A stretch of 64,000 bases of DNA, taken from contig JAQGDQ010000255.1 of the NCBI GenBank assembly GCA_030141605.1, positions 243,746-307,745 of the forward strand, written 5' to 3'. This stretch comes from Tubiluchus corallicola. Lineage: Eukaryota > Animalia > Priapulida. The notes below the pieces were generated by a model. That model made no database searches, was not told where the DNA came from, and was given only the letters and a program-made list of their open reading frames with translations. The position numbers were made by a program, and so were the translations under genes. Shown in pieces: positions 11,801-55,514 of this stretch; positions within the stretch are counted from its first letter, which is position 1; each line of letters starts with the position of its first letter.

Positions 11801-13319
11801 AAAATTTTGATTCTGAGTGTCAAATTAAAACTTTTGAGTTATAAACTTTTGGGTCAAATCCAGTAAATGTCCAATCTTTCACATTTTATTCCTTTTTTAA
11901 CCAGCTTCCATCAGCCTCTCTCACACATTCACGTGACTGCTGTTAAAAGTATAGACTGTTTCTAACATGAAGCATCCACCCATCACAAATCTTGACTGCC
12001 CCATTTAAATCTGTTCTCCATTTGGTACTACAATTTTCTCTCAAGTTTGGTTCCCCAATTCTTTACTGTATTTAAGTGTAAGCATCTGACAATTTTGTGC
12101 TCAGTAAACGAATGACTAATATTACTGTTCGTAACCTCAAACTGCTTGGCAGATACAGTGTTGCTTAACTTAAGCTGCTAACAATAGGAATAAATTTGAC
12201 AATAGACACTCAAAATTTTAAAATTAAAGTTCTATATAGTTAATTAAATTATGTTTAGTTTTAACTATACTATAGTATGACAAAATGAACCCACTTGGAC
12301 ACTGGTTCAAAGATTTATTTAAACTTTCTTTGTTTTGGTCAAATTCGATTTCAAAATTAACTGCAGGTGATTAACTGATAATTATGTATCATGATGTAGT
12401 TAATGAACTGCTTGTGAATATCACTTTGCTGAAAATGAAATTAAAATTGAAATGAAAAAAATAACCACAACATAGCCATAAATTTTTGTGACAAATGTCT
12501 ACAAACCTTCTTTGAAAGTTCCTTCAACCTCTGCGCTTTCTCATCCATCAGTTTAACTCTTGTCTCCTGCGCTTTTGCTTGCTTCTCTTGATGACGTCGT
12601 ATTGACTCCGTGAGCGAGCGTTTCCGTGATGGGGAAGACAGCTTCTCATGCATCTGGAGGGCACGACCCGGTGCCCTGCTCTCAATCTCGGCACCTTCGA
12701 CGATGTCTGCCCAGGACATGTGAGAACGAGCTGCAGAAAAAACATATGGTCATCTAAGCGTAGATGCAGCATAAAAAATTTCCAAAAAACTAAAACTTCA
12801 CAGTATCGTAAGTATAACAAATTTGTAAAAATATATGTACGCCATTTCTTACGTAAGATTTTATAAGATTTAAATGCTAAAAAAATTAAGAAAGTTGACT
12901 ATATTACACTAAATTGTGTTTTACGATGTGGTATATTTTCACATTAACTACATCTTAAATTTTCGCTAACACTGGTTAAGCATCATGTTTTACTTACAAT
13001 CATACTGTGCCACAATATCATTCCAGTCTTTTGGATCCCTGTCTCCAGTACTTTCTGATACAGAAATCTGAAAAAAATACAACCTATAACTAAAACAAGA
13101 CTCAACTGCCTTATATAACATTTAGTCAAAAACTAAAATAAATTCTTGGTGATGAATGATTACCTCAGATCCTAACCACCTTTCTTTATACTGTGACTAA
13201 TATAAAACAAAAATGGCTAACAGAACTGACAGAAGTTAACATTTTAGCTAAAAAAATGGGAGGAGCTGGCCCCAAAAAACAAGAAATAATCCGGTAACAA
13301 CAACAGCAGCAGCAGCAGC

Positions 13320-13370
<51 letters not shown>

Positions 13371-25488: not shown

Positions 25489-28400
25489 CTGAAAATATCA
25501 ATATCGTCTGTTAGCAAAGAAAGAAAAAGTTTTGTAATCGACATTTTCTCTTGAAAAAAGTTCCAAATCAACTTCAAAGGGCCAGAGTTAAAAACTAGAG
25601 GTCGTAATTTTGCAAATTTTCACATTATATGATCAATATCAGGCTTCTTTTGATTAGAATAGCTTACAACTTTTACATTGACAGTTTAACATCTGAAACT
25701 GAGATCTGGTTTTTTGAAATGAAAACCGCTAAATGTAGATCAGCAATTTTTTATGCTACTCCTCTTATACAGCAACGACGAAATCGGGAAGCCAATCCAA
25801 ATTCTTCAGCAATTAGTAGGACAGATTTAGGTTTGTCCTTCACTGAGTCACTTGAATCACTGCCAGTGAGTAACCCAAGGTCAGAAGTCACACACAAGAA
25901 CACAAAAACCCGGAGACTTTATGCAATGCACAGTAAATTTGTGAGATTTTGTGGCTTTATTTCTAAGGCACAGTTATCCCATTAGCAAATTTTTAACTAA
26001 TTATAACCACCAGGATGACATTAGAGTTTAATCATGACTTTGGGGATTTTCTGCATTCTACTGAAACTCATATGCGATGCTGCAATAAAATGTAACACAT
26101 AGGAGCAAAGAGTTTACATTCTCTCCAATTGTTATCAATTAGTCAAGAGAATAAGCCTGCCAACTGTCTGCTATTTCAGACAACACAAACTTTGGTTTTT
26201 ATGCATGCTTTTCATTATGTTGTTTAGTGACCAGAGTCATCTCATTCCCCCAATGTTAACGTGCTATTAGTCGCATTTCACACACAAACCCTTGTTGCAT
26301 ATCTTTGTGGACTTGGTCAATTATCAGTAAAGCAATACCATGGCTCAAGTGCCTCATTACGTAAAATTTGATGAAAATTAACCAAATTTATCTGCCTAAA
26401 ACCAACAGATCCTTGTACCACATTTCGCCCGCCAAAATTATACCATTCATTATACAAAAACGATTTGACACATATGGTTTGTGTTAAATTAACAACACTG
26501 AAATTATTACTATAAACAACTAGATCTCAAAAATGCCGCCAAAATCTTGGAGCAGTCAGAAAATTTGCTCAGATAAAATCCGAATATCAGGCAGTAATAA
26601 CGGTTGGTACAAACTTAGCTTTGGCATATTTACGTACAAACAAAATTAGCAGAGGTGTGTAACTAGCGTAAAACAGACGTACAGCTATGCTGAAAAAAGG
26701 CTGCTGAAAACCAATGATCTCAACTACTAAGAATTTCTTGCAACATTCAGGCCAGCCAAAGCTGCTTATGCTGCACGAAGCAGTAAACAGCCATACAGCA
26801 GCACCAAAAATAGCCTCTCCTAAGATTATATTACACCTTCTGCTATAGGATTCCTCCCGTTCTTCTCTGATTAGCTGTCAACCAATAGACGGCAGCATAA
26901 ATTGGTTCACAAATGTTGCATTTGCTTTAGTTTTATATGTATCTTGTTAAAAAATGCCATGAAGCACTTCTACACATATTGTAAAGCTTCAAACTAAAAT
27001 GTCGTCTATAATAAATTGTTTAAATAAGTAAAAAATGGTAAATCCAATTGCCCAGTGTGTTTTCATTAAGCACACTGTTCACTGATTATAAGTAATTAGT
27101 TCAAACAACATAAACATGCAAACCTCAGCAGTTAACTATGTCCTGAAGTGTGGCCTCCATCTGGTCGGAGAGGGATTTCACTCTCAACTTCTCCTCTGCT
27201 AACTCCTCTGAAGTAATGCAGCACAAACACATGCAAACGTCATGCAATTATTTGTCAACAATATAAAAAACCGAACAAACAATTTTGAGCTCCCGATTTC
27301 ACGTTGGACATTTGTGGTTGACATGTTCCAAACGTGGCAAATCTTGCAGCAAGTAAAACGTTTCACTTTCCATATTCAAGAAAAAAGGTTTACATATACG
27401 AAATGGAGACTATTTGTTGAGTGTCAAGAATTATCAAACTGTGGACTTGACCTCTGCATTCTCAAAGAGAGATGCCCCGTTTTTGAATGTCGGTTCAAAA
27501 ATCAATCAACCGTGATTTCAAGAGCCCAGGACACTCTGCGTACAGGTCACTAGAGTTAGTACAAAATGCAAAATAAAAAGAAAATTCCAAATAAAAATTG
27601 GGACCAGTAATGGAATGAAGATGGAAACAATTTTGGCAAAAACAGAACAGGCAAAATGGGGTATTCAAAAAGCAAAATGGTGAATATAGGCAAACAAACT
27701 GTACGCAGACGAAAGAATTTGTCAACAATATCGTGATAAAAGCTCTTTACACATAAAGATGACTTAATTCCAACAGAAACAGAGCAATGGTGGCAGAAGA
27801 GAAAACAACAGCATCATCACTGCGAGTATAGAACTCACACCATTGAGAACAGGGAAGCAAACAGTAACAAAAAATAATTATTTGAAACTTCCTGAGGTAG
27901 TTTCGCATATATTATTAGCTCATTTCAGCCATCATGAACAATCGACTGTGACTAGCACTTTAACCTTATCAAAAATCATCATGCTCATTATATTTTTTCT
28001 GTCAATAAAAAAGAATAAATGCGGAGAAAACATGTGAAATCCAGTTTAAAAACCAAGGGCAGTTTCACAAAGCCATCACGACGTCGTTATCATACTCACT
28101 TAACTACATGTATTAATAACGACATTAACTTAGTGACAACTTTGTGAAACTAGCCCAGTTTACTCTGTGAACCATAGGGTAGTATCAACTTGTTCGGGTA
28201 AAAGAGCTTTTATCAGAAAACAAACAAACGCAATATAAATGTACCATAATCTATGAGTTAAGCCGAGAAATGTTAATTAAATTTCTGTATTAAATGAACG
28301 TAGAAGTTGTTAAAGATTAAATCTTCTTTTCTATAATGTCAAAATAACTCAGACGCAAGCAACACAAGGCTCACTTCAGTAAAAATATCCAGTAGGAATG

Positions 28401-31400
28401 CAAAACCTTGCACTCTAACACTCTTAACTCACTACAGATTAGACTAATTGCGAGCAAAGGTGGACCGTTCCACCTTATATCACATAGAACAAAATGTGAG
28501 TAAAACAAAATACACCAGTCGTATGGTTTTGCTATGTTAGAAGCTAAATGGTAGAAGTATTTCATTTAGGAACATAGAAACTAAACAGGTGAACAAAGAA
28601 CATTGTTTAGATAACACCTTGTCCCAAGTTGCAAGAAAAAGCGAAACAAAGTTCTTACCTTCCAGTCTGTCGACCTCCTTCTGGAGCTTCTGTACAGTCC
28701 TCTCGGCAAACTCAGCACGAGTTTCAGCCTATAAGTGAGAAACTCATATTAAGCCAAAACTTACAACAGTGTTACAAAAGCACAAAGCGTATAGTTTGCA
28801 TTTCATTTATAAACATTTCTCATCCAAAAGGTGAAAGCGACGAGGAAGCAATTATGCAGTCATTTTTTTGCAGCTGTTTTATTTTGTTTCATTTCCTGAT
28901 CTACAAAAGAACTGCCCGTTTAGCCGAAAAAGATTTGAAGCATCGTTACTTTTTCAATGCATATTCATTTTGCTCGTTTTAAAACAAAATTTGTAAACAT
29001 TAAGCTTACATCCTTAAGTCTGGCAGTAAGGTCGCGGATCTGAGTTTCATAGCTGTCTTCTCTTTGTGCAGCCTGAAAAAGAAAAGAGAATAAATAAACA
29101 AACACAAAAAACAAAAAATGTTTCAAGAAACTGTTTCAGGCTTATTAGTTGTTTTATCTTAACTACTCTTGTGTTTTCGTTGAGCAACCTCAACAACCTC
29201 AGTGCATATCAAACGACAAACGAAGAAATAATATTGCATTTCCTGACAACAACTGTGAATTAAGCCAAGGATTGTTTTATATCTATTGTTTTTGTATGGC
29301 TATAATACAGTACCTTCTCCTCGCTAACTTCTAGAGATTTCAGGTTGTTGCCGACAACTCGAAGTTCCTCTTCCAATTCTACAATTTTGCTGTAAAATAG
29401 CAAGAAACAATTTACCATTTGACATTCCATCACAATTCATATTCTTGCCTTAACATCATGAAGCAAGCAAATGTGATACTGTACTAAAATGCAACGAATG
29501 ACAGAAATACGACATTTTGCTAATGAAAACAATGTAAATGTAATACTTTGCTAGTGAAACATTAGCATGAAACATGTAAACATGACATGTGCAAATGAAA
29601 CGGGTTATCGGTTGGAGCAAAATTCAGGAAATCTGCAAAACAATAATGAAGACAAATGCTAGGAGATACAGGAAGCTTGGATTTAACGTGCATCAAGTAG
29701 CTGATTCAACGGAAGATAAGAAACATGTGCAAGCTTACCATTACTGCGATCTGCCAGGGCACATAAAATAAACCACAAAATGCTTACAAGTTCTAAATGA
29801 GCAGCGCTTGTACGAAACGGAGACAGATAAGCAAAATTTTTTAGAGCAGCCATACATACACGTTTTACATAGCTGTGATGCATGCATTAACTTTTAACGA
29901 GACATAATCTAGTGCATGATTTCAGCATAGCGAAGCTTACTAGGCTGCCATTCCATATTAACTATGCTAAATACGTTTCACAATCTACAACACTGAGCAA
30001 TTAGACAATAATCCACAATATAATGAAGGGATGATTTGTGTTTTACTGGTGGCTTCCAAAACTGATGCAATTTTGTATTTTAATTTTGCTAAAAAAAGAA
30101 AAATACTATGCTCCAGTTAGGATTTTTTTTGTAAAATCATCCATTCATATTACACAGCGCAACATTAAGACATTTATTTTTAGCCACTATATTTCTCCTA
30201 GAGATTATAATTGCCATTCAAAGCACTTATTAATGAACTGCAGTTTTTCAGCTCACGAAAACAACATGCTTATTAAGTTAACTTAAAGAGGGGAAGTTAG
30301 ACAAAAGCAAAGCAGATATTAGACAAAACAACACACATCTGACATCAAGAACTCCATTATCATAATCACACACTGCAAATATTTAAGTAGTCAAGCAGGA
30401 CGTACTACGTGTAAATATCGTAAGTTAACATGCAAACAGTAAGCGGTAAACGAGCAACATAATCACGCAAATAAACGAAGAAGAACTGGTAATGTATGCA
30501 GGTGTAAACAGATGGAAAAGAGAATCAAAACTGGTAAAAGTGTAATTTGGGGTGTAAAGAATTCAAACGGCAATACGTAGCAATATGGACATAGAGATAA
30601 ACGACTGCGTTTAACTTATGTGAACATTTTGTGTTGACCGTAGACGTGGTGACGCACAGAAATGTATTTTCAGACTTTTGCATTGAGGAAAAAAGTATCT
30701 GAAGGTGCCCAGAAGTTTTTGTGAAGAACTTGATAGCACGTGTTTTGATAAAAAGTGTTCAGCGACGAAAATTAACTGAAGAATCAGAAAGTGAAAACTA
30801 GAGTAAATGACACGCCACCTTCTGTCAGCTTGAAGTAATTCATACTGTGTGCACGTCTTTAAGCGATACACTTCTCTTACAAAAATAAACTAGCAACTGC
30901 ATGTTTTTGAATGCAGTAGAATGGAGAAAAAGCCGAGGAAGCAAAAACATCTGTCAATGAAACGTGCTACCACATCTTACGGCTGCGCACAGAATGCTTC
31001 ATATTACTCATTCATAAACAAAATAATCTCGAAAATTCAATTGAAAATAAATGGCGCAGAAGAGGCAGGCATCAGCAGAGAGGTGCTGTACTCACGCTTC
31101 ACCCCCGGAAGCCCTCTCCTCCGCGCGCTCCAAGTCGGACTCCATCATCTGCACTCTGCGAGACACCTAACGATTGTAACAATGATAAAGTATTAGACAA
31201 TTTAGTCGTAATGTAGTGTACTTACGCCTCGCCTGCCTCTGCACGCTCTTCCGCTCGCTCCAAGTCAGACTCGACCATCTGAACTTTTCGAGCTACCTAG
31301 ACACACATAAGAAACTACTTAGCATAAACTGTAAATTCAAATAATTTTATATGCTTTACTTATTTGTAACGATATGATATGAACAATAGTATAAAAAAGT

Positions 31401-34400
31401 TTTCCACTTTTCAGTGCAGACAAATAAATAAAGCGTTTTCGAAGTCTAAAAAATGTATAACAAACAAGTGTCACAAATAACAGCACTGACCAATGTATAG
31501 CAGTTGCTTAGTTTGCTTTTAAATATTTCACCTATCTAAGCACATAAACTCTAACAAGTGCTAATTAAATTAAATTGAACAAACTGTTAATTCAAATATT
31601 GCACTTCTCATAATGTAATAAATGTCCAGAGCAAACTGTAAAATATGTGAAACTAAAAGCAGTGATGTAAAATGATGACATCGTCAATTTATCTCTGTAG
31701 TCATCGTACTTGGCTCAATTACCTCTACTTCTGTTTGGCAGTAAAATTAATGTAGATACTATGCTAGATAAAATATCAATCAAAATACACAGTTCCTAAA
31801 CTTCTAAGAATCAGCAAAACTTAGTTACAACAAAAACATAAAGAAAACAGTAAATATCTACAAAGCAAATTAAGCTAGAAGGTAATGCAGGTGTATCTAA
31901 AAAAAGTACTAAAAGTAATTAAGTGGCTAAAAAATCTTGGACCACAGGTTTTGTCGTCAAGAATGTAGATAACCCAAGGTATGGAAGACAAGATTTTTTA
32001 AACCACGTACAATATTACTTACTCAGTAGTGTCGTCATTCCAGTTCTACGAATTAATGCCCAACGTAAAAGCACAATAATGCAAAAAAAGCATGCTGTAT
32101 AACAAATCAATACCGCATTCTACTTCTAAAACTTATGTAGTTTAAAGACACAGTAGTAGATTCTGAGCTTTTATAACAGTTTTTCTAACTGACTTATGAT
32201 TAAGAAATTGAAGTTTGGCAATAAAAGAATTCACCAGCATCCACTTGAATAGTGACATGATTTATTTCACAACTGACGTTTCAACATCGAAGCAAGATGC
32301 CTGTTTTTCCAACACAAACATGCTTCATTACTGTTTTTCATAATTTATTGTGCACAATTTTGCTTTAGTTTTAACTGGAAAAAAATTTATGGTAAAATGA
32401 CCCAAACGACCACTAAAGTACGCAATTTGGAAAATTTCTGAAAAAGCTAAAAGGTAGACTTGTTTAGAAGTCATTCAAGATTTTCTAGCTAATCGTGAAT
32501 GAATAATAAATTATTGGTATACATGCTATAGAAACTGTACATCTTTAAACTACAAGCTACAAAACTATTCTAGCAAAACATTTGTACATGTGTACAAGCT
32601 TTTAGAACACCACGAAATCTGTATGATTTCAAATACATCTAAAACATTGAGGAAATAACAAATTTTATGTTACTATATGTCAGGTCACCCTGTCTATCCT
32701 GGACCATCATAATGCTAAGTCATTACATACAAAATGTTTAGCAATTTCACAAACACAATGTGGCTGATTAGGTTTACGACTTGACATTCAAAAATGAAAA
32801 CACAGAACAAACTAAACAAAGTTTCACAAACTGGTCAATGAATGATCAGTAAAAATACCTGAACTTTGGGAATCTAGCTATATCTAGCATGCATGCATGC
32901 ACATATCCGACTGTCTCAGAGGAAACCCAGACAAAACAAGAGAATTTTTCCTTCAAATTATGCAGGAAAACAACATTCAACCAAAGTTATTATGATGAAA
33001 GTTTGAAAAGCACAGTGTTTTACGAAAATATGGCACAATTTAAATTTAACTATTCTTTCTCAAATTTTGATTTGACGGGTTTCTCAATACCATTTTCCAG
33101 AACATTGCTGGCTTTACTGACATTGGCTGGGCTTCCCGAGAAGTGCTCACAAAGATCATAATTCACAATAATGTATTAGAAATGTTGGCGCTTTTACAGA
33201 GATTTGTCCAAAAAATTATTTTAATAATGTAAAAAAATGCTAGTATTAAGATTATTGGTGTGGTTAATAATCCTAATTCAGCAAAAAGCATTGGTTACTA
33301 AAGAAAGCTTTATGGATCTCCTTTGATGCTGTTGATATACAAAAGTTACTGAAAGACTATTAAGCAAACATGTATGGTTATTAACCTACTGTTTATAGCA
33401 TAGGAAACATTACATACATATCATAAATCAGGTGATCGGCAAAAAAGAAAAGAAAAATATGTGCACCGTTACAATTGCCATATCCAGGCAACTGCAGCAT
33501 GCAATTTCCTCATATGCAGTATCATCAGGCACATTTTAACTTTAGTTCCATATGAATATATCAACTATGAATAATAAACTGTCGCTACCATTGTGCGGTG
33601 ATGCGATTAGTACGACGCATTTGCTCTACAAGCGGCAAATTTTGTACATTTTTTGTTCGACTTGTGCGACAAAATGTAAAAATTTCGGCACATTAGGTGT
33701 TACAAGTATGTTGAGCTATGCCGGAGCTGCATAAGTAATATTCAATGACCATCCAGCCGGATGCATCAACTGCGTGTTACTCGGATGCAGCATGCAAGCA
33801 CTGCCGGCTAACCTCATCATATTTTCTATCAGCTTCTTCTGCGAGAAACTGGGCTTCCTTCAGCTGCATGTCGAGCAAATTGGTGCGTTCTTCCTCGCTG
33901 TTCACTCGATTCTCAAGCACCTTGCGATTTCTTGTCAAGGCAGAAACAAACACAGTTAGTCAATCCGCACTCGCAAAATCAACAGTTTAGTTACCATATC
34001 AGTGATGGGCTTGGACGGAGAAAAAGAAATCAGAGCACTGCATTTTCCGCACACCATGCACACAGAGCCTACCCTAAAGTGCGAACCCGAGGAGTACTAA
34101 CACGCATTCACATACTTTTGGACAGGAGCTGTAGATCAGACACGCATGTTGTTAGTACAAAACAGTTGCTAAAACGAAAAACAATGGGTAATTATCAAGG
34201 TCGACGCCTTTAGAAAACCATGCCAGATCACCTCATCATATTTTCTATCGGCTTCCTCCGCCAAGAACTGGGCTTCCTTGAGTTGCAACTCCAATGCGTC
34301 AGTTCTCTCTTCCTCAGATTGGACCTTGTGTTCTAGCATTTTCCTCATGCTAGCATGTACAATAATCAAGTTAAACTCAGTTAACCCTTTTGTCCACGTC

Positions 34401-37400
34401 ACATATATACACAAACAACCCATGCAAAAAATCCCACAGGTCGGGGTCACCTGCGGCTACCTTTTTTCCGTGGCATCCGCATCTGAAAAACAACGTAACA
34501 ACAACAACAACAAAGACACTCGTGTAGAAGATGCATGCACGGGGCCATTGGCCAGGTGTGGGTGTTATAGTATATATCTAGTGTCCCCGGTGCGGGGCAC
34601 CACAGACACACTACACACGCAACTGACGACTTGGCAACGATGATGTGAAGACAGAAAGCGGAACACCTAAAACAGGTATTAGACAGCATGAAGATTAGCA
34701 CGCAGCGCACTCCATCGCATGCATCTGTCACCTCATCGTATTTTCGATCCGCCTCCTCCGCCAGAAACTGCGCTTCCTTCAGCTGCAGCTCCAGGGCGTC
34801 CGTCCGCTCTTCTTCCGTCTGGCATTTGTGCTCAAGCATTTTCCGCATGCTAATATAAGGGTAAAAAATTGTCAATTTTCACATTATCACCTGCACAATA
34901 TCAGCAAAGGGAACCTGTGGGTAAAATACATGTATGAATCAAACAGCGACTACGTTCTAGAGCTCTAACTACACCAGCAAGCTACGAGAAATCCTTACGC
35001 CCACCGAGAGCAAAAGTACAAGGACATAGCCCAACACCGCCCTAAACGCTAACCAACCGGAGTACCTCTTCAAAACGTTGCTCGGCTGATTCGTGTAATA
35101 ACTGTGCCTCTCGAAGCTGCATTTCTAACAGCTCACCGCGGCTGTCGTCCATTGTACTTCTATTCTCCATGGCCTTCCTTGCACTGCGAAACAGAATACA
35201 CAGAGGCGACTGTAATGGCATGCACATGCAAATAAGAAATGGTTAACTAAATGGACCAGATTTACATGCATACCTCCTCATACTTCTTATCGGCTTCTTC
35301 TGCTAGCACCCTATACTGCTGAATCTCTCGCTGAAGATCATCTATTCGATCGTCGTCGACATGGAAGCGATTTTCCATGGCCTTTTTTGCCCTGCCCATG
35401 CAGCGAGAAGCGCAATGAAACAAATACAAAACAGACAAATGCCGGTTAGTCAAATACAGTTTCTATTCTAAGACGTTAGTGAGTTTAAGACAGCATGAGA
35501 AGTGATGTGCCAGTCATTGGCTGTCTGGCAAGGTTCTAAAGAAAAGAGACGGTAAAACTGAAACCACCTGTAGCATAGTTTAGTCCAGCAAGAAATTAAA
35601 CAATGAAGTGAAGAATTACACCATAAAGAATAACAGATGTCTGAAAAAGAAAGATGATAGGAGAGAAGTAGTTATTAAGCACAGAACACAAAATATCAAC
35701 ACTGGAAGGAAAAACACAAACACAAAACCAAGGCCACAGAAACTTGTAAAACACTTTGATTTAGTAAAAAACAGAATCTATTGCATAACTTGCCATTTAC
35801 TGTTTTTAGGTTTATGGATAATGTTACAAAGTATAACTACAGCCATAGACTTTCATTTACTGAAACTAATTAATAAATAGTGTTTCACATTTATCTCAAA
35901 ACATTCATCATATAAACAATTTTTTTTGTTTACAAAAATTCTGCAAAATCACTTATAAAACTTCGTTAAGACAACAAAATTTCATTCAACAAAATCTGAA
36001 TGAAAAAGGATGATGATGCAAGCTTGATTATACACTACTGATGGTCACGAGACCATGCTAACTGATGATATATAGTGATCAATAACTGCTGAACACTACC
36101 TCATCACTTAATCAGTGATATTAATATGTTCGAATAATCAAACCAGTCATTTGATAAAAAAATATGAATTCATATGCAAAAACTATAAAAGCAAAATGAA
36201 AAAAATCTTTTGTAAATTTTTTTTGACATTTACAATAACAAAATCGATGAAAAGGAAATTTCGTCTTTAAGTTCACAAGATCACCTGGACTTAGTTATTA
36301 ATAACTATATTTCATTTTAAAAGTATTAGTTTTTTGTTTGCTTTTGAGTTCAGAAACATGAATATAGAATTCTTTTAACAATTTTGTAATTCATTATATA
36401 ACACCCACAAAAAACCAAGATTGCATCACATTTCATATAAAAATATTGACTTTTTTAACTAGATCATTTTTATCAAGCCAGAGAAAATAGTTTAAGTAAC
36501 AGTTTATGTCATACCGTTCACTTTCATCTGCAGCCTTTGAGGCTTCCTCTAATTTTTCTGTTGCGGTCTTTAATCTTTCCTCAGTTCTTTCCAAATCTTC
36601 TTCCAACAACTGGATTCTCCTGTTTAAGTTCTGTACCTCAGCTTCGGCCTATGGACAAACATTAAACAGGAAAATTGTTGATTACACGCTATTGTTGTAA
36701 ACGATGTCAAATATAAACAGCTAACTTAGATTTGCCCAAAATATGGCGGATAAGTAATAAAATCTCGTTACGTCAGAAAAACTGAGAAACTGGTTCTTAG
36801 ACACATTTCTTTCAAAAAAGATGAGGACAAAACTGCTCAATTTATTTTAGTTTGGAAATAATTGATTTTCAAACAAAAGGCAATGTAGACACAGTCTATA
36901 AAAATATAACAGGCATTTCATACCTATAGACTATATCAGCAGTCCACAATTAAACAACAAGACTCAATTTTACAAGGTACCATGTGTATGCATAGCATGT
37001 CTTTAACACCACAAGTAGTTGAAAAAAGCACTGATAAGCAACAACAACAACAACAACAAATGCATACACGTGGTGTTTACCAAGGTATTTATGAGCTTTT
37101 TCATTTTTAGGTAACAAAACAAGTAAAAAATCACATGTTGTGCCCAAGAACCAATTACTTAATTTTAAGTGATTGAGCAATAAAGTTACAGCTATATATT
37201 TCAAGATAATGAAATGATCACCTTATAATATTTTCTACTTAAACATAATTTTCCGAATGTCATTAGATGAGAGCAAATGGTTTAAATTAGAACTACCAAG
37301 AAGCACTGACAATTTTTATTTGCAAATGAGCAAACCCGAAAAATATCATCTGTAGAGTTCAATGCTCTACACTAGGAAACTATTCATTATAAAAGTGATT

Positions 37401-40400
37401 ATACAGTAAAAAAGCTTTTGCTGCAATGCGAATATGTGATGCAGCAGTATTCCCTCTTTTCTCTATGCAACAATTACAATACAGATCTGATTACAACAAA
37501 ATGAATGTCACTTCAGTTAAACAGTACACATAGGAATCACGGATGAATGAATTTTAATATATCTATACGATTTTAAGATTATTTATATAATAGAGGTAGC
37601 AAGCTCATAGGCCGGCAAGTAAACCTACGCTTTCTCGCTTATGTTCTTCGACTTTTAATTGTCGTTTTAGCTCTTCACATTCATCTTTTGCGCCCTCTAA
37701 CTCCTCCTTCTGCTGCCTCATTTTCTTTTTAATAACATCTACCACACTTGTGCCTGACATTTTGATGCGGAATGCTGTTATCACAGAAAAAGTAAAAAAC
37801 ACCAACACCTCAAATCACTTCTATCAAAATGGTGATGGCCGAAGAACGTAATATTAGAAAATAGTTCACAGAGAAAATTATTTCCATTTTTCATTCGCTA
37901 ATCCGATTTTAAGCAGTGAATTTAGCACTACCGTTTAGCGTGCACAGTACATTATTCAGCTGTTAAAGTTTGTTGCCAAAAAACGTCAAGGTTTAGTTTT
38001 TTATCATTTTTCATATTCATTCGCAGCGTGATACGGTCAGGGTGGGTTTGCTATTTCCTATTCAGGAAGTGTTGGCAGCAGCCGCGGCAGATCTAAACGA
38101 ACATTTTCCCACGCATTACTGATTTTGCCGGCCGGCTGTAGCATGATGTAAAATTATATAAGTAGACTTTATAGCTTGCCTACTTTTAGTGTTCGCGAAA
38201 ATGTCAAGCAAAATATTTAAAAAACTCCCGAAAATGTCATGGTGGTAGTACACAATTTAGTCTAATTAACTCAATTTAGCTGGAGTCAGTCCGTTTTCTC
38301 AGACGGAAATGACTCATCAATGAATGACTCACTGCGCGCAAACCCCAGTACCCCGCAGTTCTCGCATGGGTTTCTTTTTCTGGTAAACGATCCCGTGCAA
38401 GGCATAATTTCTTAGCGTTTAGAGGCAGTGAATGCCCTTATCTTTTAAGGCCTCAGAGGGACCTAATTTAGTCTAGCAGTTTTAAAATCCCTATTATGAA
38501 CACATAATTTTACACCATATAACCACCTTGTACACCACGAGCACCTACTGTATAATTACACCAAATTAGTCAAATTTCAAGTCACTCTTTAATTAGGTTA
38601 CCCACGAAGAAAAATCTCAATTTCAGTAATCGAGTATTTTAAACACAGTACAATTTGTTCCCTAGGATACTTACATCAGCAGCCTGCTTGTCTTTCTCTT
38701 CGAGTTTGTTATTTGCCTGTGATAATTCCTCCTGAGCAGCATCCAACTCGTTCTCCACCTGTGTCATCTTCTTCTGGAGAGCCTTCACTTCCTCTTCAGC
38801 CTGTCAAAAATAAGTTAAAAACTTCAAAAGTCTTGTAGTTTCATATATCCAGCTGTATTGCCATATAAAGCACGACAATAAATTAAAATGGGAACAGGTC
38901 TACAAAAGATATAATATTACACCTAAAGTACAATTCAGCTTACATTGCAGATATTATTAATTCAAACATTAATAGTTATTGAGGGATACACTTGTCTGTT
39001 TCTTATTAAATTTTAAATCCTATTTGTATCAGGTTCAAATAAATTATAGAAATTTCTCTCGAATAATCATAAATAACAATAAAGATTTTAAAAAATTATG
39101 CCGCCTTTGATTACTGATTTAGTAATTTTTATAAAAATAATAATTATTCTTATTTAAGCCTTAACTGCTTTTACTCTTTCTTAGCTTTACTGATTTTAAC
39201 AAAAGCTAGTAATAGGTGGCGCGGAGAGCTTGACCGGTATTGCAAACTACATCGCGGCATAGTCACTGCATGATTATGTCAAATTCTGAGATCACCACCA
39301 AAGCGATTCTGAATAACTAATGACTCTGATCTGGTTTCAAGTTTCGGAGAGAACCTGTTTCTGTATTAAAGCTTTTCAGATACAATGTTACAATTAACAA
39401 AATGTACCATCTTCTAAAATGGTGATGACTTCTACAGAATGAAATGTTAAAAAATGCAAAGGCTATTTGTTGTAAAACGGAAAACTTTATGTTTCATTCG
39501 TGTAATTTCTGTTTCATAAATGTGTGTCTCTAGAAATAATTCAGGACGTTGAAATACCAGTGCAGCTCTTTTTCTTAAGTTTTACTATTTTTTAAACAGA
39601 TTTTGTTTTCATAACTCTTGATGTACAGAAAAAAACCTGATTGACATACCTCATAAGAATGAGTTGGTATTCTAATACAACTGAGAGGCATATAAGATTA
39701 GATATCTGTGTTTTAACAGTGAAAGTGCTTCAACTGTAATCTAGTGATACAAATAGTAAACTAACATTTACTAGATCGATTTGTAGCCTTTATAAACTCC
39801 TGTGCTATATGAAAAATAGTTTATTTTGGTCAAGATTAAAAAGTAAGTTACAACGTAATTAAGTATTAATTTTAAAGTCAATGTTAAATTCATTAATATT
39901 GACTAGAAGAAAGTTTGAACTATGCTAGTTAAGTAAACTTTCGTTAAATTTTACTAATTTGTCGGTGAAATGCAAGCGCAGGTAGTTTTGTTAAGTTAAG
40001 CGCCGTTTTGGGCTAATGATCTTTCCTGTCAGCATTTAAGATCGCTATTATCGCGATTATACGTAAATTAGAATATTAGCTAACAGCGAGGGACTTTAAT
40101 AGCCTTTTATACAGTTGTCATACATGTGTCAATTACTTATTATCCGAGCAAAAATTAATAAAAGGTGTGTTAAGCAGGAAAATAATTTCATTTGACACAA
40201 ATCGGAAAAATGTTACATTTCCACAAAAACGTATGGCAAAATTATTTTATTTCCATACCCACTATTAAATATTGACAAAGAACGGCCCGTCAATGAACTG
40301 TGGAAGTGCACATATTCTAAAACTCGCTGGTTGACAGTGGGATGTACCCTCAATAAATTTTCCCGTATTTTTATTTTCCATTATTTTTATATATTTTCTA

Positions 40401-41920
40401 TTATTTTCCCCTATTTTTATATTCCCTTATTTTTCAGCATACTCTTGTTTTTATTCTTGTTTCATGGACTTAAATGTCTGAAATAAAATGGATAAAATTC
40501 TTGAAGCAAATGGAGAGAAAAACAAGAAAAAATCGGGACTAAGTGTAAATTTGCACCAGGGGCTTTTTGCCTGAAAGGCCAACGCATAATTAACGTTACA
40601 GTTAATTAAATTGTTGAAAGGTTAATGCTAAACGGATTATTTTCATGTCAAATGTTACATTTCAACAACATCCGCGTTGGTCTATGAATGACGTCATAAG
40701 TGTAGTCGCCACCATGCCAGGGATATTATTTCAGGAATGGTTGGCTTACATTTCAGCCAGCAGCTGCCAGATTCTTAGTACTGGGCGAAAGACTAGTCTA
40801 CTGCATTCCGACATGCGGATTTATTAGGGGAGGTATCAGTGAAACCCAAACTATTTCAACTTGACTTTATTTATCTGTAATAGATTTAGGCGACATCATA
40901 GTACCAGAAGCTTCTGTAGCAGTGTCGCTAAAGTTTCTAAAGTTTTTAAAACTAGGTCATCGTTTTACATGCTTACGGAACGGCTTCTGGGTTTTTCTCT
41001 TGTGCACGCCCTTTGCTTTTCCGCCGTGCGCTTGGCCTCTTGACTTATAAAAATAGCACCAGATCGTGTGCTTCGCAAGCCTCCCGCATATGGGTACACT
41101 AATGCCATCTTCTCGAAGACTGAATGGTTTTCGGTCTTATGAACTGCCTGAACTGAGCCAACACTGTGTATTATAAATAATACCGTTTTATTCTATTGTT
41201 TATAGAATTGTCCGCACCTTTATTGTAATGTCTATGCTGCTGTCCGAGAAAATTTTGTTAGCTTTCATGTTTAAGCTTTAGTAATATTAAAATTTAAACT
41301 ATTACACACATACTGGCCATTATCTTGTTAAATGAGAAATCTTGGCAAAACTAGCAAAAGGTTTCAAATCGGGAAATATTAGCTAATGGCAGTAGATGGC
41401 GATACTGACGGTTCTAAACCCTACCATTAATATTGCATTATTTATAGTGAATTTAGTGAAGCCATTTTGAAAGTTCATTGATAAGGAAACAGCAGCTATT
41501 GTTGTTCTAAACAATGTTATTTTCGTTGTTATATTAGCTACTTTCTGCTTAGTAAAATTTAAAAAAGTTACTTTGGCCTATGCTCTAGTTAGCTTTACGA
41601 TCTCATTTTTTGTCTTCTCGGCGTATTAAATAAAATGCACAAAACATGCGTTATGATTAACTGGTGTTTTCTGAAAAAAGTCAGCCTTTGTGATGCATCT
41701 AATTGCGATAAATAGCTAAGTGATATAGAAATGGGAACTGTAATGAGCGAATGTAAGAAAAATGCCATTTCTAATGTTGAAATTTTGTGGAAATGACGTA
41801 AGATACCTGTAAGGCTCTCTTCTCTGCCTCCTTCTTGGCAGCATCGCAGTCGTCTGCCCTGTCCAAGGCATTCTCCCTCTCAAGCTTCATAGCTTGTAAC
41901 TTCTTCTTAATGGCTTCCAT
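25406..41920 (-). CDS. TPM: tropomyosin, complete alternatively spliced gene (284-aa long and 248-aa short isoforms)
   Basis: Canonical exon sizes 114/126/(132)/134/118/71/76/63/70/83 nt. 1a+2+3...9 = 855 nt (284 aa + stop); 1b+3...9 = 747 nt (248 aa + stop). Motifs [55 protein letters not shown]. Confidence 0.98.
27125..27207 (-). CDS. TPM: tropomyosin proximal terminal exon 9 (cytoskeletal-type C-terminus)
   Basis: TTCAG| acceptor, phase 1, 83 nt: [27 protein letters not shown]. Resembles the arthropod non-muscle ending MEATLHDIQNM. Confidence 0.92.
28057..28156. mobile_element. short MITE-like inverted-repeat element
   Basis: TIRs GGGCAGTTTCACAAAG...CTTTGTGAAACTAGCCC, 100 bp, partly palindromic interior. 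Confidence 0.6.
28659..28728 (-). CDS. TPM: tropomyosin exon 8
   Basis: 70 nt, [26 protein letters not shown]|...G|GTAAG. Confidence 0.97.
29010..29072 (-). CDS. TPM: tropomyosin exon 7
   Basis: 63 nt, [24 protein letters not shown]|...|GTAAGC. Confidence 0.97.
29314..29389 (-). CDS. TPM: tropomyosin exon 6
   Basis: 76 nt, [25 protein letters not shown]. Confidence 0.97.
31096..31166 (-). CDS. TPM: tropomyosin alternative exon 5b
   Basis: 71 nt, [26 protein letters not shown]|...|GTGAGT. Confidence 0.92.
31226..31296 (-). CDS. TPM: tropomyosin alternative exon 5a
   Basis: 71 nt, [26 protein letters not shown]|...|GTAAGT. Confidence 0.95.
33813..33930 (-). CDS. TPM: tropomyosin alternative exon 4e
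   Basis: 118 nt, [42 protein letters not shown]| acceptor, |GTTAGC donor. Not shown on the minus strand in the ORF track. Confidence 0.92.
34232..34349 (-). CDS. TPM: tropomyosin alternative exon 4d
   Basis: 118 nt, [42 protein letters not shown]|...|GTGATC. Confidence 0.92.
34732..34849 (-). CDS. TPM: tropomyosin alternative exon 4c
   Basis: 118 nt, [42 protein letters not shown]|...|GTGACA. Confidence 0.92.
35066..35183 (-). CDS. TPM: tropomyosin alternative exon 4b
   Basis: 118 nt, [42 protein letters not shown]|...|GTACTC. Confidence 0.9.
35274..35391 (-). CDS. TPM: tropomyosin alternative exon 4a
   Basis: 118 nt, [42 protein letters not shown]|...|GTATGC. Confidence 0.9.
36515..36648 (-). 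CDS. TPM: tropomyosin exon 3
   Basis: 134 nt, [44 protein letters not shown](R). Confidence 0.97.
37629..37760 (-). CDS. TPM: tropomyosin exon 1b (start of short cytoskeletal isoforms)
   Basis: 132 nt/44 aa, [44 protein letters not shown]. Matches the DVLKKKMRQ motif of fly/nematode short isoforms; phase-0 donor joins exon 3. Confidence 0.93.
38304..38331. promoter_or_regulatory. ETS/AP-1 composite plus second AP-1 site upstream of exon 1b
   Basis: CGGAAATGACTCA (38304-38316) and TGACTCA (38325-38331) in a CpG-richer stretch. Motif match only. Confidence 0.4.
38675..38800 (-). CDS. TPM: tropomyosin exon 2
   Basis: 126 nt, [45 protein letters not shown]|...|GTAAGT. Confidence 0.96.
41807..41920 (-). 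CDS. TPM: tropomyosin exon 1a (start of long isoforms)
   Basis: 114 nt, [38 protein letters not shown], |GTATCT donor. Confidence 0.97.
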
Positions 41921-42339: not shown

Positions 42340-45199
42340 CTGTGCTTGTTTACCAATGTCCCATCGACAGAGTGCTTGTAAGATCTTCTGCAATGCTGTA
42401 GGCTGTGCGCTAATACGTATGACGCGCTTACTAATAATAAGATACCCAGAAATGTGTTTGCAATGTGACGCGTTTACATGGAAAACATTTTACCCATTTG
42501 ACTTGGAACTGCAGGCTCACATAAACCTTTGAAATTCACAGCATGGGACAAATGACACCATTTATAAAACTGACCACAATGTACGATGTGTCTGAGAAAT
42601 TTTGCTTTATAATTTTTTAATTTTTTTAACAAGCGGAGTAAAATGCTTGAAAACTGGTACAGATAAATTAAAAACTTTGTTCAAATTAAACGAAAATGTG
42701 AAAAGAACTACTGCACTAGCAGGCTTAGCTATTTTGCTATCTTCTTAAAGCACTTGTATTAATGATTAACACATGTATTTCCAATATCAGCAAACATTTC
42801 CAGTTAAATGTTTGCACAACAATCTCTATTTATTATTTCGAGTTCACAGAGGACGATTGAAGGTGTCCTATAATCTTTTCGTATAACTTTTAGCCTGGCT
42901 GCAAAAATGCAGGATGCCCCAAACTTTCAAAGGAAAAATTCTCTTGGATCAGTCCAGTGGCAAACTATCTTGCTTTGACAAAGTCTCTCACAGCTCGCGA
43001 GTTGTGAGGAACGGCTTTATTTTTTTCCAAAACTACATTGTTAACAGTCAAAATATAGCGTGGTCCACATACTGTTTTGAAACGTCAAAGATGTGTCAGT
43101 AGATGAAAATTAATATGAGAAATTTAAGTGCATAGTGAAATTTGACATAAACTATACATAAAGGGATTTGTCATTGATCTCATAATAAGTAAGAAAGAGG
43201 AGAATTGCTGCCTGGTCGATGTATAGGTTTGCTAGACTTGGTTGGCAAGAGAATGGTTGACCACAAGGAAGATGGCTTCTGGGAAGGTCGCAGTATTGGT
43301 TTCATCTGTCGTACTGTTCGTGACTGTTTACTTTGTTGGGTATTGCGTGCCGGACTGTACAAAAAATGTGTTCAAGATTGAAATGCAGTGTTCTCCCTGG
43401 TGAATACTGTGCAGTGAAAATATGCTAATACGCAGACATTGAAATGTAAAAAAAAACAAGATATATTATAGCAAATAAAAGTGGCGTTAGCAAATATAAC
43501 ATTATAATATTTTTACGTGGCTGTGACGTCATAATGCAGAAGTCCAGGTTCGTTTTGGACAAAAGATTATTATTCAAAGCTTTCCAACCTGATAAACTTT
43601 GATTACTCATCTTAACGATGCAGATTTTCATTAGTTAGTGCATTATAATCGTTTATTAATTTACTTAGTACTCAATCACAGTTAATATCGATTTGATGAG
43701 AGCATTTCAACAAATATTTTTCTGCATTGTTCTTAAGAAACACCCTGTACAACACTGCATTGTTAGTTGTAAAGTGCATAAATGATTATTTGTTCAAAAT
43801 ATAGATGCATAAACGCATAAAAAGTAACCGTGGTTCCAGTAAGATACGTCTCTTATTTTAATAACACCCGACTATGATTTAACGAATTTTGATTAATTAT
43901 TTTCTCAGATGCAACACGTGCAACTTCATTAATTTTCCGCACCTTGCACGATTACAAAAATATGTTTCTGGGTTCAATCAGTTTAATATCTATTTATTGA
44001 TCTTTTCCGCTGGATGACATAACAAACTAGGCAGCCTATCGACTGTATGGCATTAATAGAGCAGGAGAAGAAAAAAAATCCTGTACACTTGGCTTCGGCG
44101 GGAAGCCACAGAGCCACGCGACTCGTTCACGATCGCGTTACCAGCATCGCTAAACTTAGCATTTGGAGTACAGAGCTCATAAATAGAAGGTTTGGTCGGA
44201 GTAGAACACATGTTATATACGTCTTTGAACAGGGACCGTATAGCAAGCAGAACGAATGCCTCATGTTCTCACGAAGTCTCAGTGGACCCCTTACTTTCGT
44301 TAAAAATAAAATTAATGAATTAAAAATTGCCAGTTAGTAGTTATTCTGTGGTTCTACCACTAGGTGTGGCCATTTAAAACTTCGTGAACATTCTTGTCTT
44401 GGGACACGTTTCTCAATTACTATCAAAGAGTTTTCTTCTAAACATAATTTATTCAGACGACTCGCTAATTTTTGCAAGCATATAGAGCTACAATGGAAAT
44501 CCGAATTAAATTTAAAATTTTCACAATTTCCCGCTCAGTTTGGGCGTTTTTATAGCAGACTAAGCGCAGCCACTCAATGCGCGTCGAATTTGCAACGATC
44601 AAATAAAATAAAATCAAATTTTATCTAATGTCTGGTTTGACATGAACCTAAAAACATAAAAAGCATGTCTCCTAAGAGATATTAAGCCGACTCATGTAGC
44701 AAAACTAATATTAAATAGTGCTTAAGTGATAAAAAAGCTTTACAAGTATACAGCTATTATAACAAAATAAGTTGGACCGTATAGCATATAAAATCATATA
44801 TAAAATGCTAACTTAAATGCTACGATCAACATAATGGATGCCTGTAATTAATCAAATTAAAATCACCTTTCCCAAGGAGCTTACAGTTTAAAAGTAACAA
44901 TGCAATAAGAACTATAAAACTATCCATTTCTGCGCCATGCGGTATATTAATTTATTTCACGTTCGTCATCTTTTCGATAACATCGTTTAAGACCAAACAT
45001 CAAGACGAAGCCGAGATCACTTATCTAGGTGCTCAGTGGTTACATTTGCTAGTAAAGTTGTTCTGTAATTATTAATACCTGGAAAAGTTGCAATAAGCGA
45101 AAAATGTCAGTTTAACTACAATTACTACATGTAGATAAGTTTGAGTTTAATTGATGAAATCCTCTTACAAGTTTCTAGGGTTTGTATGCGCTCAAAATC

Positions 45200-45348
45200 G
45201 TCACTCACATGTGTTTCCAGGGCACGCCCGTCTTTCTATGTGCTCAAAATGCCCTAAATTTAAATTCAAATTTTGACTTTGAATTTGAATTTAGGGCATT
45301 TCGAGCACATCGAAAGACGGGCGTGCCCTGGAAACACACGTGAGTGAC
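45200..45348. repeat. 149-bp near-perfect inverted repeat (71-bp arms, 7-nt loop)
   Basis: Arms 45200-45270 and 45278-45348 are reverse complements with 4 mismatches. Confidence 0.95.
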
Positions 45349-47017: not shown

Positions 47018-50000
47018 TCAAACGTATTCTGGTGGAACTTGAGCCGTCTTTTCTTTTCTTTTACACCTCTTAGAACAACAGTATATACCTACAGATATCA
47101 GAAAAATCGATAACAAAGCACAAATTATTATGACTATTACAAACATGTACTGAAATTTTTTCTCTGGAACAGGAAATGTTTTGAGACTAGCGGAAGCCAT
47201 GTTGGACAAGCTGCTCTGACTGTCTTCCTCCTGGGTGGAAAACGTTCGTACAGCAAACCATAGAGTTACGTTGCTGGTTGTAGCTGCTGTGAAAATAGAA
47301 ACACGACATTGTTACAAAGTATACGTTACTGACATGTGTTTAAAAGGGAAGGTTTGGCTACTAGACCAACGGCTACAAATCTATCCAAGTGCTGCCAAGT
47401 TTAAACAATTTTGTAGTTAATTTAGCTGGACTAACTTATCATTTCGTGCAATTACCACGTTGTCGTGAGTCATCGTGCTTTTTTATGCAGCTGAGCCATT
47501 ACAGTACACAGCGCTGTGTCTGGTTAGTAAGCGAATGGGTGACCGCTTGAAAATCTATCATGCGATCCCTGACTATTTAGTGTGACAAGAGAGAGAGAGT
47601 GTAGAGGAGTGCGAACGTGTCAAAGTCGTCTGCTAATTCTGCGTCATCTTAGTAGGTTGTCCTTGATAATGACATAGGTTGCGGTCTTACTAAACCTGTC
47701 TACATCACTAGCCATTGAGCGCTTGATCTTGGTTTGTAAACGCCCGAATTGAACAAACAACGATTGCTTTAAATACTGCCAAGCAAGACGCTCAAGTAAG
47801 GAACTACAGATAGAGGACAAGTATGCGGTTTAAAGCCGAAAAAGTAAAATTATTTTTATAAATTTGCTTGCGAAATCGTAGCGCTAGGTTACTGTATATA
47901 TTAGCTGGCCTCTACTATCAATGTCGTCGTTGCCGGTGTTATCACCGCTAGTTGGGAGCCTGAATTTCGTCCTGGAACGTGTCCCACTTTTACGAAGCCA
48001 TTTTCTGCTGATAAGATGTCTACTGATCATGCTGTACAAAGAGAAGAAGCCAGAATGTGGCCCTGAATTCAGCTGAAATGGCAAACCTTTGCTGCATGGT
48101 GGCTAACTAAATAAATAATCCAGCGCCTTCAACCCTCACCACTGCACACTATCTATAGCTTTTACCGAACCAAAATGCATCGTACTACAAATAAAGACCA
48201 TAGATGTCATCCCGTTAATAAAGTGAGCTGCAAGTTTCAGTTTTCAGTTTTCATGGAATTATAAGTTTCTCTCATTAAATACAAGCAGTGGGCCACATTG
48301 ATACGTTTCGGGCAATTTATCCTTAAATGAGCCTGTATACCTGTTGCATTACCTAAGCTTTAATTTACTGATTAAAATAAGCCTACGGATTCATTTTGAT
48401 AAGATTCATGTGTGCAACATATTGAGCAACATTGGATATCATATACTAAAACTGTATTTAATTTTCTGCATTCATTCGTAAAATCTGCTTTATGTATGTC
48501 CAAGAACTATTCCTCGTTTACCTGATATAGCTTTACAGTTCATAACCGAATCAATTATTATCTGCCTTTATTTTCTTGATTTTAAGAAATATTTTAATTT
48601 TAGGCCCACAGCTATTATTAAGGTGGGAAGAGACAGATGTCGAAGAACAGAGATATAAAAGCGTGGAAGGTGGCGACACATACAGTGTGTTTTCGTGGTA
48701 ACTGGTTGACTTGTCCGAGTGCTGACACATTAATTTGATGCACGATGATTTAATAGCTATAATTATTGAGATTATTGAGCAGTGAGTGACCCTAGACTGT
48801 TAATGAATGATCTTTATTATATAACTTGTTTGGGCCTAGAGTCTTTAATTTAATGATTCGGAGTACAAATGCGTAAAGCGATTTCTATTTTTTAAAACTT
48901 TTTGAAAGCGAATAAATTTTAAAGTAGCTATCGTTTGGCGCAGACCCATAAATATGCACGCAGAAAACCAAATTTGGCTTTAATTTCGCAAAAAATTCTT
49001 TGTCGAATTATTAGTAATACCGTTATAATTATGCTACATTTTACAGCAGGCTCATAACCACTAGATAGCGGTGCCTAGAGTCTAGTGGTGCCCTTTGTCA
49101 ATTGTGTGCTGCCATCTTGAGGCAATTTTTAACAAAAATAATGTATTTCAACTACGATAAGAACAACGTTATAACATTGTTAATCATAATGGATGAGGTT
49201 TTAATATAGCCGAAATTATGAAAAGATGTAGCTTCATCGTTAGGCGGGTGATCAGCATGACAAGCACTTTGTGACCAAAGTTAAGTAACCTGCATATCGT
49301 CAGTAAAAGGATGGTGGTACATTTTGACAGATAGTTCATGCATTCGAGAGTGGTTAAGACTCTTGTGCTGGTTTAGTGTCTCATGCCAGAGCTTTGATAA
49401 TGAAACAGATTCATTAGTTACTACTGCATATTTAGTAAGTTATGTTACAGAGTGCTGAGAATCCCACTTTACACAGTAGAGAGTTGCTGTGTAATTTTGT
49501 TTGCCATAAAATAGAATAGTCAATAGTTTCCAAATTGATATGCTTACCTGTTAATTGAGTGAGTTTTGTCACATTGACAACGTATATTTCCAGAGTTCCA
49601 GAATTTCCAGGAGAAGTAAGATTTCCTGTCGCAACAGCGCTTTCGGGAACAATCATGGTTTTTTCCTGTGACGTTTCTAGTCTCTCAAAGTCGTCGCTAA
49701 TGTAAATCGTATATCGATATGCTATAAACAATAATTATAAAATACAGGCGAAGTGCCCACCATAACAAATAATGCACGAACGTTTCACGCAGTGTCGCTC
49801 CATGCAGATATATTCGCAGAAAAGTCCAACGTTCTGCGTTTGTTCCGAGTAAAATTACAAAATTGGAATGCCGAATTACACAGTTGCCGTTTAGTGTAGT
49901 ACGTGGTTGTGAAGGCACGCGGGAAAATGGCACAGGAAAAAATGGCAAAGAAAAAATTTCACAATTGGAAAAGTAGGTAAATGGCACAGGAAAAAATGAC

Positions 50001-52605: not shown

Positions 52606-52703
<98 letters not shown>

Positions 52704-55461: not shown

Positions 55462-55514
<53 letters not shown>

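What the first reader, a model, noticed from the sequence alone, without database searches (positions are those of the whole stretch)
33813..35391. Five tandem mutually exclusive versions of tropomyosin exon 4 in 1.6 kb
Seen: five paralogous exons (35274-35391, 35066-35183, 34732-34849, 34232-34349, 33813-33930). Each is exactly 118 nt, phase 2 to 0, with AG/GT ends and no stops or indels. They fall into two sequence classes (4a/4b: xKAMENR...D; 4c/4d/4e: [18 protein letters not shown]). Including two, or none, breaks the frame. Established: exon 4 (residues ~125-164, the central actin-binding period) is constitutive in vertebrate TPM genes, and the invertebrate internal mutually exclusive sets I know of are mostly pairs. 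Inference: a five-way, mini-Dscam-like cassette array in the core of tropomyosin, which I do not recall being described.
Basis: partly seen in the sequence, partly recalled or inferred. Interest (0 to 1): 0.9.

Follow-up and report, generated by a model that had tools for sequence, protein, structure and literature searches.

The report
Five-way swappable tropomyosin hinge exon
An invertebrate tropomyosin gene carries five intact copies of the exon for the flexible middle of the protein, two of which are seen spliced in one at a time; it is a real but modest extension of an arrangement already published with three copies in the worm C. elegans.

Summary
Observation confirmed. Five 118-nt copies of tropomyosin exon 4 (residues 126-164) lie in tandem on the minus strand, each AG/GT-bounded and open. 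All 40 of 40 single-choice isoforms read to 284 or 248 aa; all 27 zero- or multi-copy choices hit an early stop. Spliced contigs of one run show 3-4c-5a and 3-4d-5a as alternative paths. All ten pairs show purifying selection (4c/4d: 22 synonymous, 3 replacement differences), and a 77%-identical 4b exists in another organism. No Dscam-like docking site was found. New here: the count of five, via a likely triplication of the muscle-type copy, with 4c/4d differing only at core residue 134 and at 136. The scan had not noted this before.

The parts
41807..41920 (-). Tropomyosin exon 1a (coding part, ATG of the 284-aa form)
   Evidence: spliced 1a-2 joint in run X2
38675..38800 (-). Exon 2
   Evidence: joints 1a-2 and 2-3 in X2
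37629..37760 (-). Exon 1b (alternative first exon of the 248-aa form)
   Evidence: best matches are nematode and crustacean short-form starts
36515..36648 (-). Exon 3 (constitutive, ends in phase 2)
35274..35391 (-). Exon 4a: upstream class, F134/D137; closest to the upstream pancrustacean copy (20 of 39 identical)
35066..35183 (-). Exon 4b: upstream class, S134/D137; 30 of 39 identical to unnamed protein P0085
34732..34849 (-). Exon 4c: muscle-type class, C134/E137; spliced between exon 3 and 5a
34232..34349 (-). Exon 4d: muscle-type class, V134/E137; spliced between exon 3 and 5a
33813..33930 (-). Exon 4e: muscle-type class, V134/E137
33500..35600 (-). Intronic TGCATG (9) and ACTAAY (5) elements around the five copies; candidate splicing-factor sites
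   Evidence: 9 against 1.3 and 5 against 0.7 expected, 0 of 1000 shuffles each; region chosen after looking
31226..31296 (-). Exon 5a (alternative to 5b)
   Evidence: joined to 4c, 4d and exon 6 in X2
31096..31166 (-). Exon 5b, 59 nt downstream of 5a
29314..29389 (-). Exon 6
29010..29072 (-). Exon 7
28659..28728 (-). Exon 8
27125..27207 (-). Alternative last exon 9x (coding part with stop)
25406..25488 (-). Last exon 9y (coding part with stop)
   Evidence: joint 8-9y in X2

Best explanation
This is a cluster of five tandem-duplicated copies of tropomyosin exon 4 in one protostome gene; 4c and 4d are spliced in singly, and 4a, 4b and 4e are likely used the same way. It likely arose in steps: an old split into an upstream class (4a, 4b) and a downstream muscle-type class, then a likely lineage-specific triplication of the latter (4c, 4d, 4e). 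The choice is probably made by tissue-specific splicing factors acting on intronic UGCAUG and ACUAAY elements, with frame-shift decay as a possible backup, rather than by a Dscam-type docking site. Each choice changes residues 126, 134 and 137, which set the stiffness of the coiled-coil middle in vertebrate tropomyosin. The isoforms would therefore tune calcium sensitivity and myosin interaction for different muscles and for non-muscle actin. Shown: anatomy, frame logic, selection, and single inclusion of 4c and 4d. Inferred: use of 4a, 4b and 4e, tissue assignment, regulators, and biophysical effect.
For: Anatomy and frame: (40 of 40 single choices open; 27 of 27 other choices stop at least 258 nt before the last junction, with either exon 5). 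RNA: run X2 gives 8 joints, all with GT..AG ends on the minus strand, including 4c-5a and 4d-5a. Both records carry 25 letters of the exon-3 end. Their depths add up to 97% of the exon 1a-2-3 contig (8524 + 5718 against 14631), as a two-way bubble would. Selection: pS exceeds pN in 10 of 10 pairs (p from 0.02 to 1e-19), while flanking introns show no similarity. The 4 listed differences between runs and window inside 4d (3) and 4a (1) are all synonymous. 4b has a 77%-identical counterpart elsewhere. Its upstream frame reads a pentapeptide compatible with the tandem GCATG element found at nearly the same place before 4b (inferred from protein only). Tree: 4c/4d/4e group together (bootstrap 85), and all five as one clade is rejected (p-AU 0.006). 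Parallels: the crayfish muscle allergen form uses 4b of a 4a/4b pair. In C. elegans the long forms LEV-11A/O use 5b and short forms use 5a or 5c. A134L, D137L and G126R alter stiffness and Ca-sensitivity (abstracts; passages). UGCAUG and ACUAAC are muscle splicing elements (abstracts).
Against: RNA support comes from one run, as contigs, with only 21-25 letters on the short side of the exon-4 joints (under the tool's 31-letter bar). Contig depth is a poor measure of level. Single inclusion is therefore shown for 2 of 5 copies only. The trees rest on 39 columns with long-branch warnings, and the five-as-one group was tested after a first tree was seen. Convergence between classes could mimic old orthology, and PMC9741552 regards the fly and worm events as unrelated. 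The motif region was chosen after looking, and TGCATG is partly palindromic (GCATG: 12 sense, 10 antisense). In C. elegans the trio was NMD-independent, so decay may play no part. One C. elegans copy (5c) is dispensable for viability, so not every copy need matter much.
Confidence: 0.8

Rival explanations
1. Only two or three copies (4c, 4d, perhaps 4b) are functional; the others are recently dead or barely used relics.
For: Only 4c and 4d are shown spliced. 4a has a long end branch (0.81) and no close relative was found. Pairwise pN/pS reflects past selection and cannot date a loss.
Against: 4a, 4b and 4e have no stop or indel and keep AG/GT ends while flanking introns have lost all similarity. 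4b is conserved in another organism. The one listed difference in 4a is synonymous. Rarely used tropomyosin exons are functional in C. elegans.
Confidence: 0.12
2. A Dscam-like array in which one copy is picked, largely at random, by competing RNA pairings between one docking site and selector sequences.
For: Five copies within 1.6 kb. Three of the four inner introns (216-382 nt) are too long for steric exclusion. 4c and 4d occur together in one sample.
Against: The best shared docking window scored -95.9 against shuffled values of -74.6 to -99.4 (downstream) and -72.2 against -63.2 to -71.1 (upstream), 6 shuffles each, and the top downstream windows are self-complementary GCATGC runs. None of the 25 longest of 237 inverted-repeat pairs recurs across the inner introns. 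Without orthologous DNA the test is weak.
Confidence: 0.06
3. An assembly or haplotype artefact has placed allelic or paralogous exons side by side.
For: 4c and 4d are 95% identical in protein, and a second tropomyosin-like transcript exists in X2.
Against: 4c and 4d are only 79% identical in DNA with saturated synonymous sites and unrelated flanks. An X1 contig spans 4a-4c. Both 4c and 4d splice to the same exon 3 and exon 5a.
Confidence: 0.02

Closest known systems
C. elegans lev-11 exons 5a/5c/5b (PMC4165533, passages read)
   Same: Homologous, mutually exclusive, 118-nt (3n+1) exons with short inner introns and 36-84% identity. They are the same exon by inference: nematode models put three copies between the exon-3 end and the exon-5 start, and lev-11 exon 7 covers residues 188-234.
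   Different: Five copies against three. Here the muscle-type copy is tripled, and exon 5 is also duplicated.
Pancrustacean tropomyosin exon 4a/4b (crayfish, PMC11791374, passages read; insect and Daphnia models)
   Same: An upstream divergent copy followed by a downstream muscle-type copy. 4a is closest to the first, 4c-4e to the second. Exons 5 and 9 are also alternative.
   Different: Two copies in every named pancrustacean model seen (lower bounds), against five.
Mollusc tropomyosin exon-4 sets in public gene models (Pinctada P0177, Batillaria P0017, Octopus bimaculoides isoforms)
   Same: Tandem sets of the same exon: four in the Pinctada model, three in the Batillaria model, three distinct among 16 Octopus bimaculoides isoforms.
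   Different: Automated predictions and lower bounds, not described in the papers I could search. Orthology to the window's copies is unresolved.
Recurrent tandem exon duplication in bilaterian tropomyosins (Irimia et al. 2010: not held, seen only as cited in PMC3342872 and PMC9741552)
   Same: Duplicated exons are assigned to long (muscle) or short (non-muscle) isoforms made from two promoters. The gene here has both first exons.
   Different: That model explains pairs. It does not by itself explain three muscle-type copies, two of them in use in one sample and two residues apart.
Arthropod Dscam1 hypervariable exon clusters (mechanism recalled; search listings only)
   Same: Tandem homologous exons, one chosen per message.
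   Different: Five copies rather than dozens, no docking site detected, and a structural coiled coil rather than a recognition surface.

Membership tests
Tropomyosin (PF00261), exon 4 | Profile match at the central region and canonical 284/248-aa products | tested here: met
   (each 39-aa piece alone lies below the whole-protein cut-off, E 1e-5 to 4e-9)
Mutually exclusive homologous exon cluster | Tandem homologous exons of equal length and phase with canonical splice sites | tested here: met
Mutually exclusive homologous exon cluster | Exactly one copy keeps the reading frame | tested here: met
   40 of 40 single choices open, 27 of 27 others stop early
Mutually exclusive homologous exon cluster | Transcripts that include one copy and skip the others | tested here: met
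   4c and 4d only, one run, short joint sides
Mutually exclusive homologous exon cluster | All five copies used, and no stable double inclusion | tested here: inconclusive
   only contigs of one RNA-like run were available, and they drop rare variants
Mutually exclusive homologous exon cluster | Purifying selection on the copies | tested here: met
Dscam-type docking/selector array | One docking site complementary to a selector beside each copy | tested here: inconclusive
   no signal clearly above 6 shuffles; no orthologous DNA for covariation
Dscam-type docking/selector array | Stochastic, cell-by-cell choice | not testable with these tools
   needs single-cell or reporter data
Steric-exclusion pair (too-short intron or near branch point) | Intervening intron too short, or branch point too near the upstream donor | tested here: not met
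   inner introns 90, 216, 382 and 301 nt: possible only for 4a-4b, not for the cluster

The most novel reading that the evidence does not exclude
The largest tropomyosin exon cluster found so far acts as a five-position stiffness dial for the coiled-coil hinge. The co-expressed pair 4c/4d, kept apart long enough to saturate synonymous sites, differs in the core only by Cys or Val at position 134, so 4c gives a disulfide-capable, redox-sensitive hinge that a muscle can switch on by splicing.
Probability: 0.15. Interest if true: 0.65.

Novelty: new variant of a known kind. Interest (0 to 1): 0.38.

Why it matters
Tropomyosin exon duplication is a textbook case of recurrent evolution, so one more cluster is expected. 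This one matters modestly. It gives the highest copy number I could find for this exon. It also supplies a natural allelic series at residues 126, 134 and 137, which muscle biophysicists otherwise probe with engineered mutants. The 4c/4d pair, two residues apart yet both retained and both spliced, is a clean test of how small a change in the hinge selection can see, and it is not explained by the muscle/non-muscle model for such duplications.

Tried and rejected
No whole genome is held for this window, so other tropomyosin genes of the organism could not be listed. No listed run is on record as RNA. X2 was treated as RNA because its contigs join across GT..AG introns. Exons 4a, 4b, 4e, 5b, 1b and 9x had no cover in X2; contigs show presence, not absence, so this is not counted as evidence. 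A word-based protein search with 4b gave 6 candidates and no hit. A metagenome scan with 4b plus P0085 matched 210 stretches and confirmed none, so no orthologous locus was obtained. A second scan gave 80 loci, mostly short or spliced: 13 held two copies, none more (lower bounds). Docking/selector search: nothing clearly above shuffles. Repeats: nothing beyond the exons themselves. Scaffold alignment A1 was misaligned and not used. The Atlas look-up of a SCAPER exon for lineage was uninformative. Lineage stayed unresolved. Over exons 3 and 5-8 the protein is closest to a tardigrade (121 of 138) and nematode-like rows (115-120), and furthest from vertebrate-like rows (89-93). The tree leaves it unplaced among protostomes, with a weak 76/47 link to molluscs. 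Irimia et al. 2010 is not held; its figures and supplements may list larger exon-4 sets. Supplements of the papers read were not opened, and the crayfish Fig. 1 and S2 could bear on copy counts. Scripts ended in errors and were rerun. Four exon ends were off by one base and corrected.
Full report
Observation. On the minus strand each is 118 nt, follows AG, precedes GT, completes the Arg codon left by exon 3, and then reads 39 codons without a stop. All five match Pfam tropomyosin positions 84/85-122, and 4e aligns to residues 127-164 of solved vertebrate tropomyosins. No sixth copy lies in the window. Only 4.4% of equally long windows in the flanking introns are stop-free.

The gene. Reading both flanks gave a complete tropomyosin gene: 1a-2 or 1b, exon 3, five exon 4 copies, 5a/5b, 6, 7, 8 and two last exons. 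All 40 of 40 single-choice combinations are open to the final stop and give the canonical 284 or 248 residues. All 27 choices of zero, two, three, four or five copies stop at least 258 nt before the last junction, with either exon 5. The neighbours are SCAPER downstream and a CLCA gene upstream. The animal is a protostome. Its constant exons are closest to a tardigrade and to nematode-like sequences, but the tree does not place it. 'Probably an ecdysozoan outside the sampled arthropods and nematodes' is my inference.

RNA. Two runs were listed. X2 has eight joints, all with GT..AG ends on the minus strand: 1a-2, 2-3, 4c-5a, 4d-5a, 5a-6, 6-7, 7-8 and 8-9y. The 4c and 4d records are each 167 letters and carry 25 letters of the exon-3 end on the other side. 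Each is therefore a path 3-4x-5a that skips the other four copies. Their depths add up to 97% of the upstream contig, as a two-way bubble would. The limits are one run, contigs only, 21-25 letters on the short sides, and depth as a poor measure of level. Single inclusion is thus shown for 2 of 5 copies.

Selection. In 10 of 10 pairs synonymous divergence exceeds replacement divergence. For 4c against 4d there are 22 synonymous differences at 23 sites and 3 replacements at 94 (p 1.5e-19), while the flanking introns share nothing. This excludes a haplotype artefact and a very recent duplication. The three listed X2 differences in 4d and the one X1 difference in 4a are synonymous. A profile search of 1.84 billion representatives returned an unnamed fragment, P0085, identical to 4b at 30 of 39 positions. 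Its upstream frame reads a pentapeptide compatible with the tandem GCATG element that lies about four bases away in the window's 4a-4b intron. That is inferred from protein only, since its DNA could not be fetched.

History. On 39 columns 4c, 4d and 4e group together (bootstrap 85) among the downstream, muscle-type copies of arthropods. 4a and 4b fall with the upstream copies of pancrustaceans and the middle copy of nematodes. Holding all five together is rejected (p-AU 0.006), and 4a with 4b is neither shown nor rejected (p-AU 0.21). Few columns, long branches and possible convergence make this suggestive only. PMC9741552 (passages) treats the fly and worm duplications as unrelated.

Mechanism. 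The inner introns are 90, 216, 382 and 301 nt, so steric exclusion cannot run the cluster. A search for one docking site pairing with all four inner introns gave nothing clearly beyond 6 shuffles. The cluster's introns hold 9 TGCATG (1.3 expected) and 5 ACTAAY (0.7 expected), with 0 of 1000 shuffles reaching either count, though I chose the region after looking. (U)GCAUG is the Fox-1 family site (PMC2777236, abstract start), and both words mark muscle-regulated exons (PMC1950531, abstract). That ACUAAY binds QKI/HOW-type proteins is recalled, and it also resembles a branch point. The likeliest model is regulated, tissue-specific choice, with decay as a possible backup. In C. elegans the equivalent trio did not depend on NMD.

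Protein effect. The copies differ at 126 (A/A/M/M/N), at core position 134 (F/S/C/V/V) and at core position 137 (D/D/E/E/E) (numbering). In vertebrate tropomyosin G126R and D137L raise sliding velocity and Ca-sensitivity (PMC3848074, abstract). A134L stiffens the molecule and changes Ca-sensitivity (PMC7698929, abstract), and D137 marks a locally flexible bend (PMC3384579, passages). 4c and 4d differ only at 134 and 136. A functional effect here is inferred, not shown.

What is known. C. elegans lev-11 has three homologous, RT-PCR-verified, mutually exclusive 118-nt exons (PMC4165533, passages). Long forms use 5b (PMC5921574, passages) and short forms 5a or 5c, with 5c dispensable for viability (PMC11702560, passages). 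Crayfish has 4a/4b (PMC11791374, passages), and Schistosoma TpmII has six duplicated pairs (PMC4026961, passages). Recurrent duplication of tropomyosin exons in most bilaterian lineages is reviewed in PMC3342872 (passages). Public models show three copies in Gongylonema, Trichinella pseudospiralis and Batillaria, three among 16 Octopus bimaculoides isoforms, and four in one Pinctada model. Of 80 metagenome loci, 13 held two copies and none more. All of these are lower bounds. No five-copy set turned up in the paper searches, but Irimia et al. 2010 was not available and most subscription journals are not searched.

Verdict. A real, selected, mutually exclusive exon cluster and a new variant of a known kind. 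It has five copies where two to four are on record, with an unexplained near-identical muscle-type pair as its most interesting feature. It is not shown to be Dscam-like. Earlier notes of this scan held nothing on this locus or this exon. Interest 0.38.

Noticed in passing
window 31096-31296 (-): Exons 5a/5b are a second duplicated pair only 59 nt apart, with a branch-point-like word about 33 nt from the 5a donor: a candidate steric lock. Duplicated exon 5 also shows in springtail, beetle and octopus models.
   Followed up: partly
run X2, record 7 laid at window 34730-34815: A 1264-nt contig carries a further 4c/4d-like exon (19 differences in 86 letters) joined to its own exon-3 and exon-5 sequences: likely a second tropomyosin gene of this animal, or another organism in the sample.
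   Followed up: no
window 34064-34243 and 34349-34574: X2 has low-depth contigs that run from exon 4d into both flanking introns: pre-mRNA, retained introns or DNA.
   Followed up: no
window 27100-27250 (-): The alternative last exon 9x is flanked by three TGCATG words and one ACTAAY word, like the exon-4 cluster.
   Followed up: no
protein P0010 (unnamed, 604 aa): A tropomyosin-like protein from another organism in which the exon 4 + exon 5 unit is repeated several times in series (7 matched stretches): an elongated tropomyosin rather than alternative exons.
   Followed up: no
protein P0177 (Pinctada imbricata model): A mis-joined public gene model strings four exon-4 copies together, pointing to an undescribed four-way cluster in a bivalve.
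   Followed up: partly
window about 850-20600 (-) and about 49400-62000 (-): Neighbouring genes: SCAPER (PF16501) and a CLCA family gene (PF08434).
   Followed up: partly
window 47018-47311 (-): A small open frame with a hydrophobic stretch and weak TMEM154/LSR profile hits below cut-off; possibly an exon of a small membrane protein.
   Followed up: no
window about 45195-45345: A roughly 150-nt near-perfect palindrome upstream of the tropomyosin gene, seen by eye; possibly a miniature inverted-repeat element.
   Followed up: no
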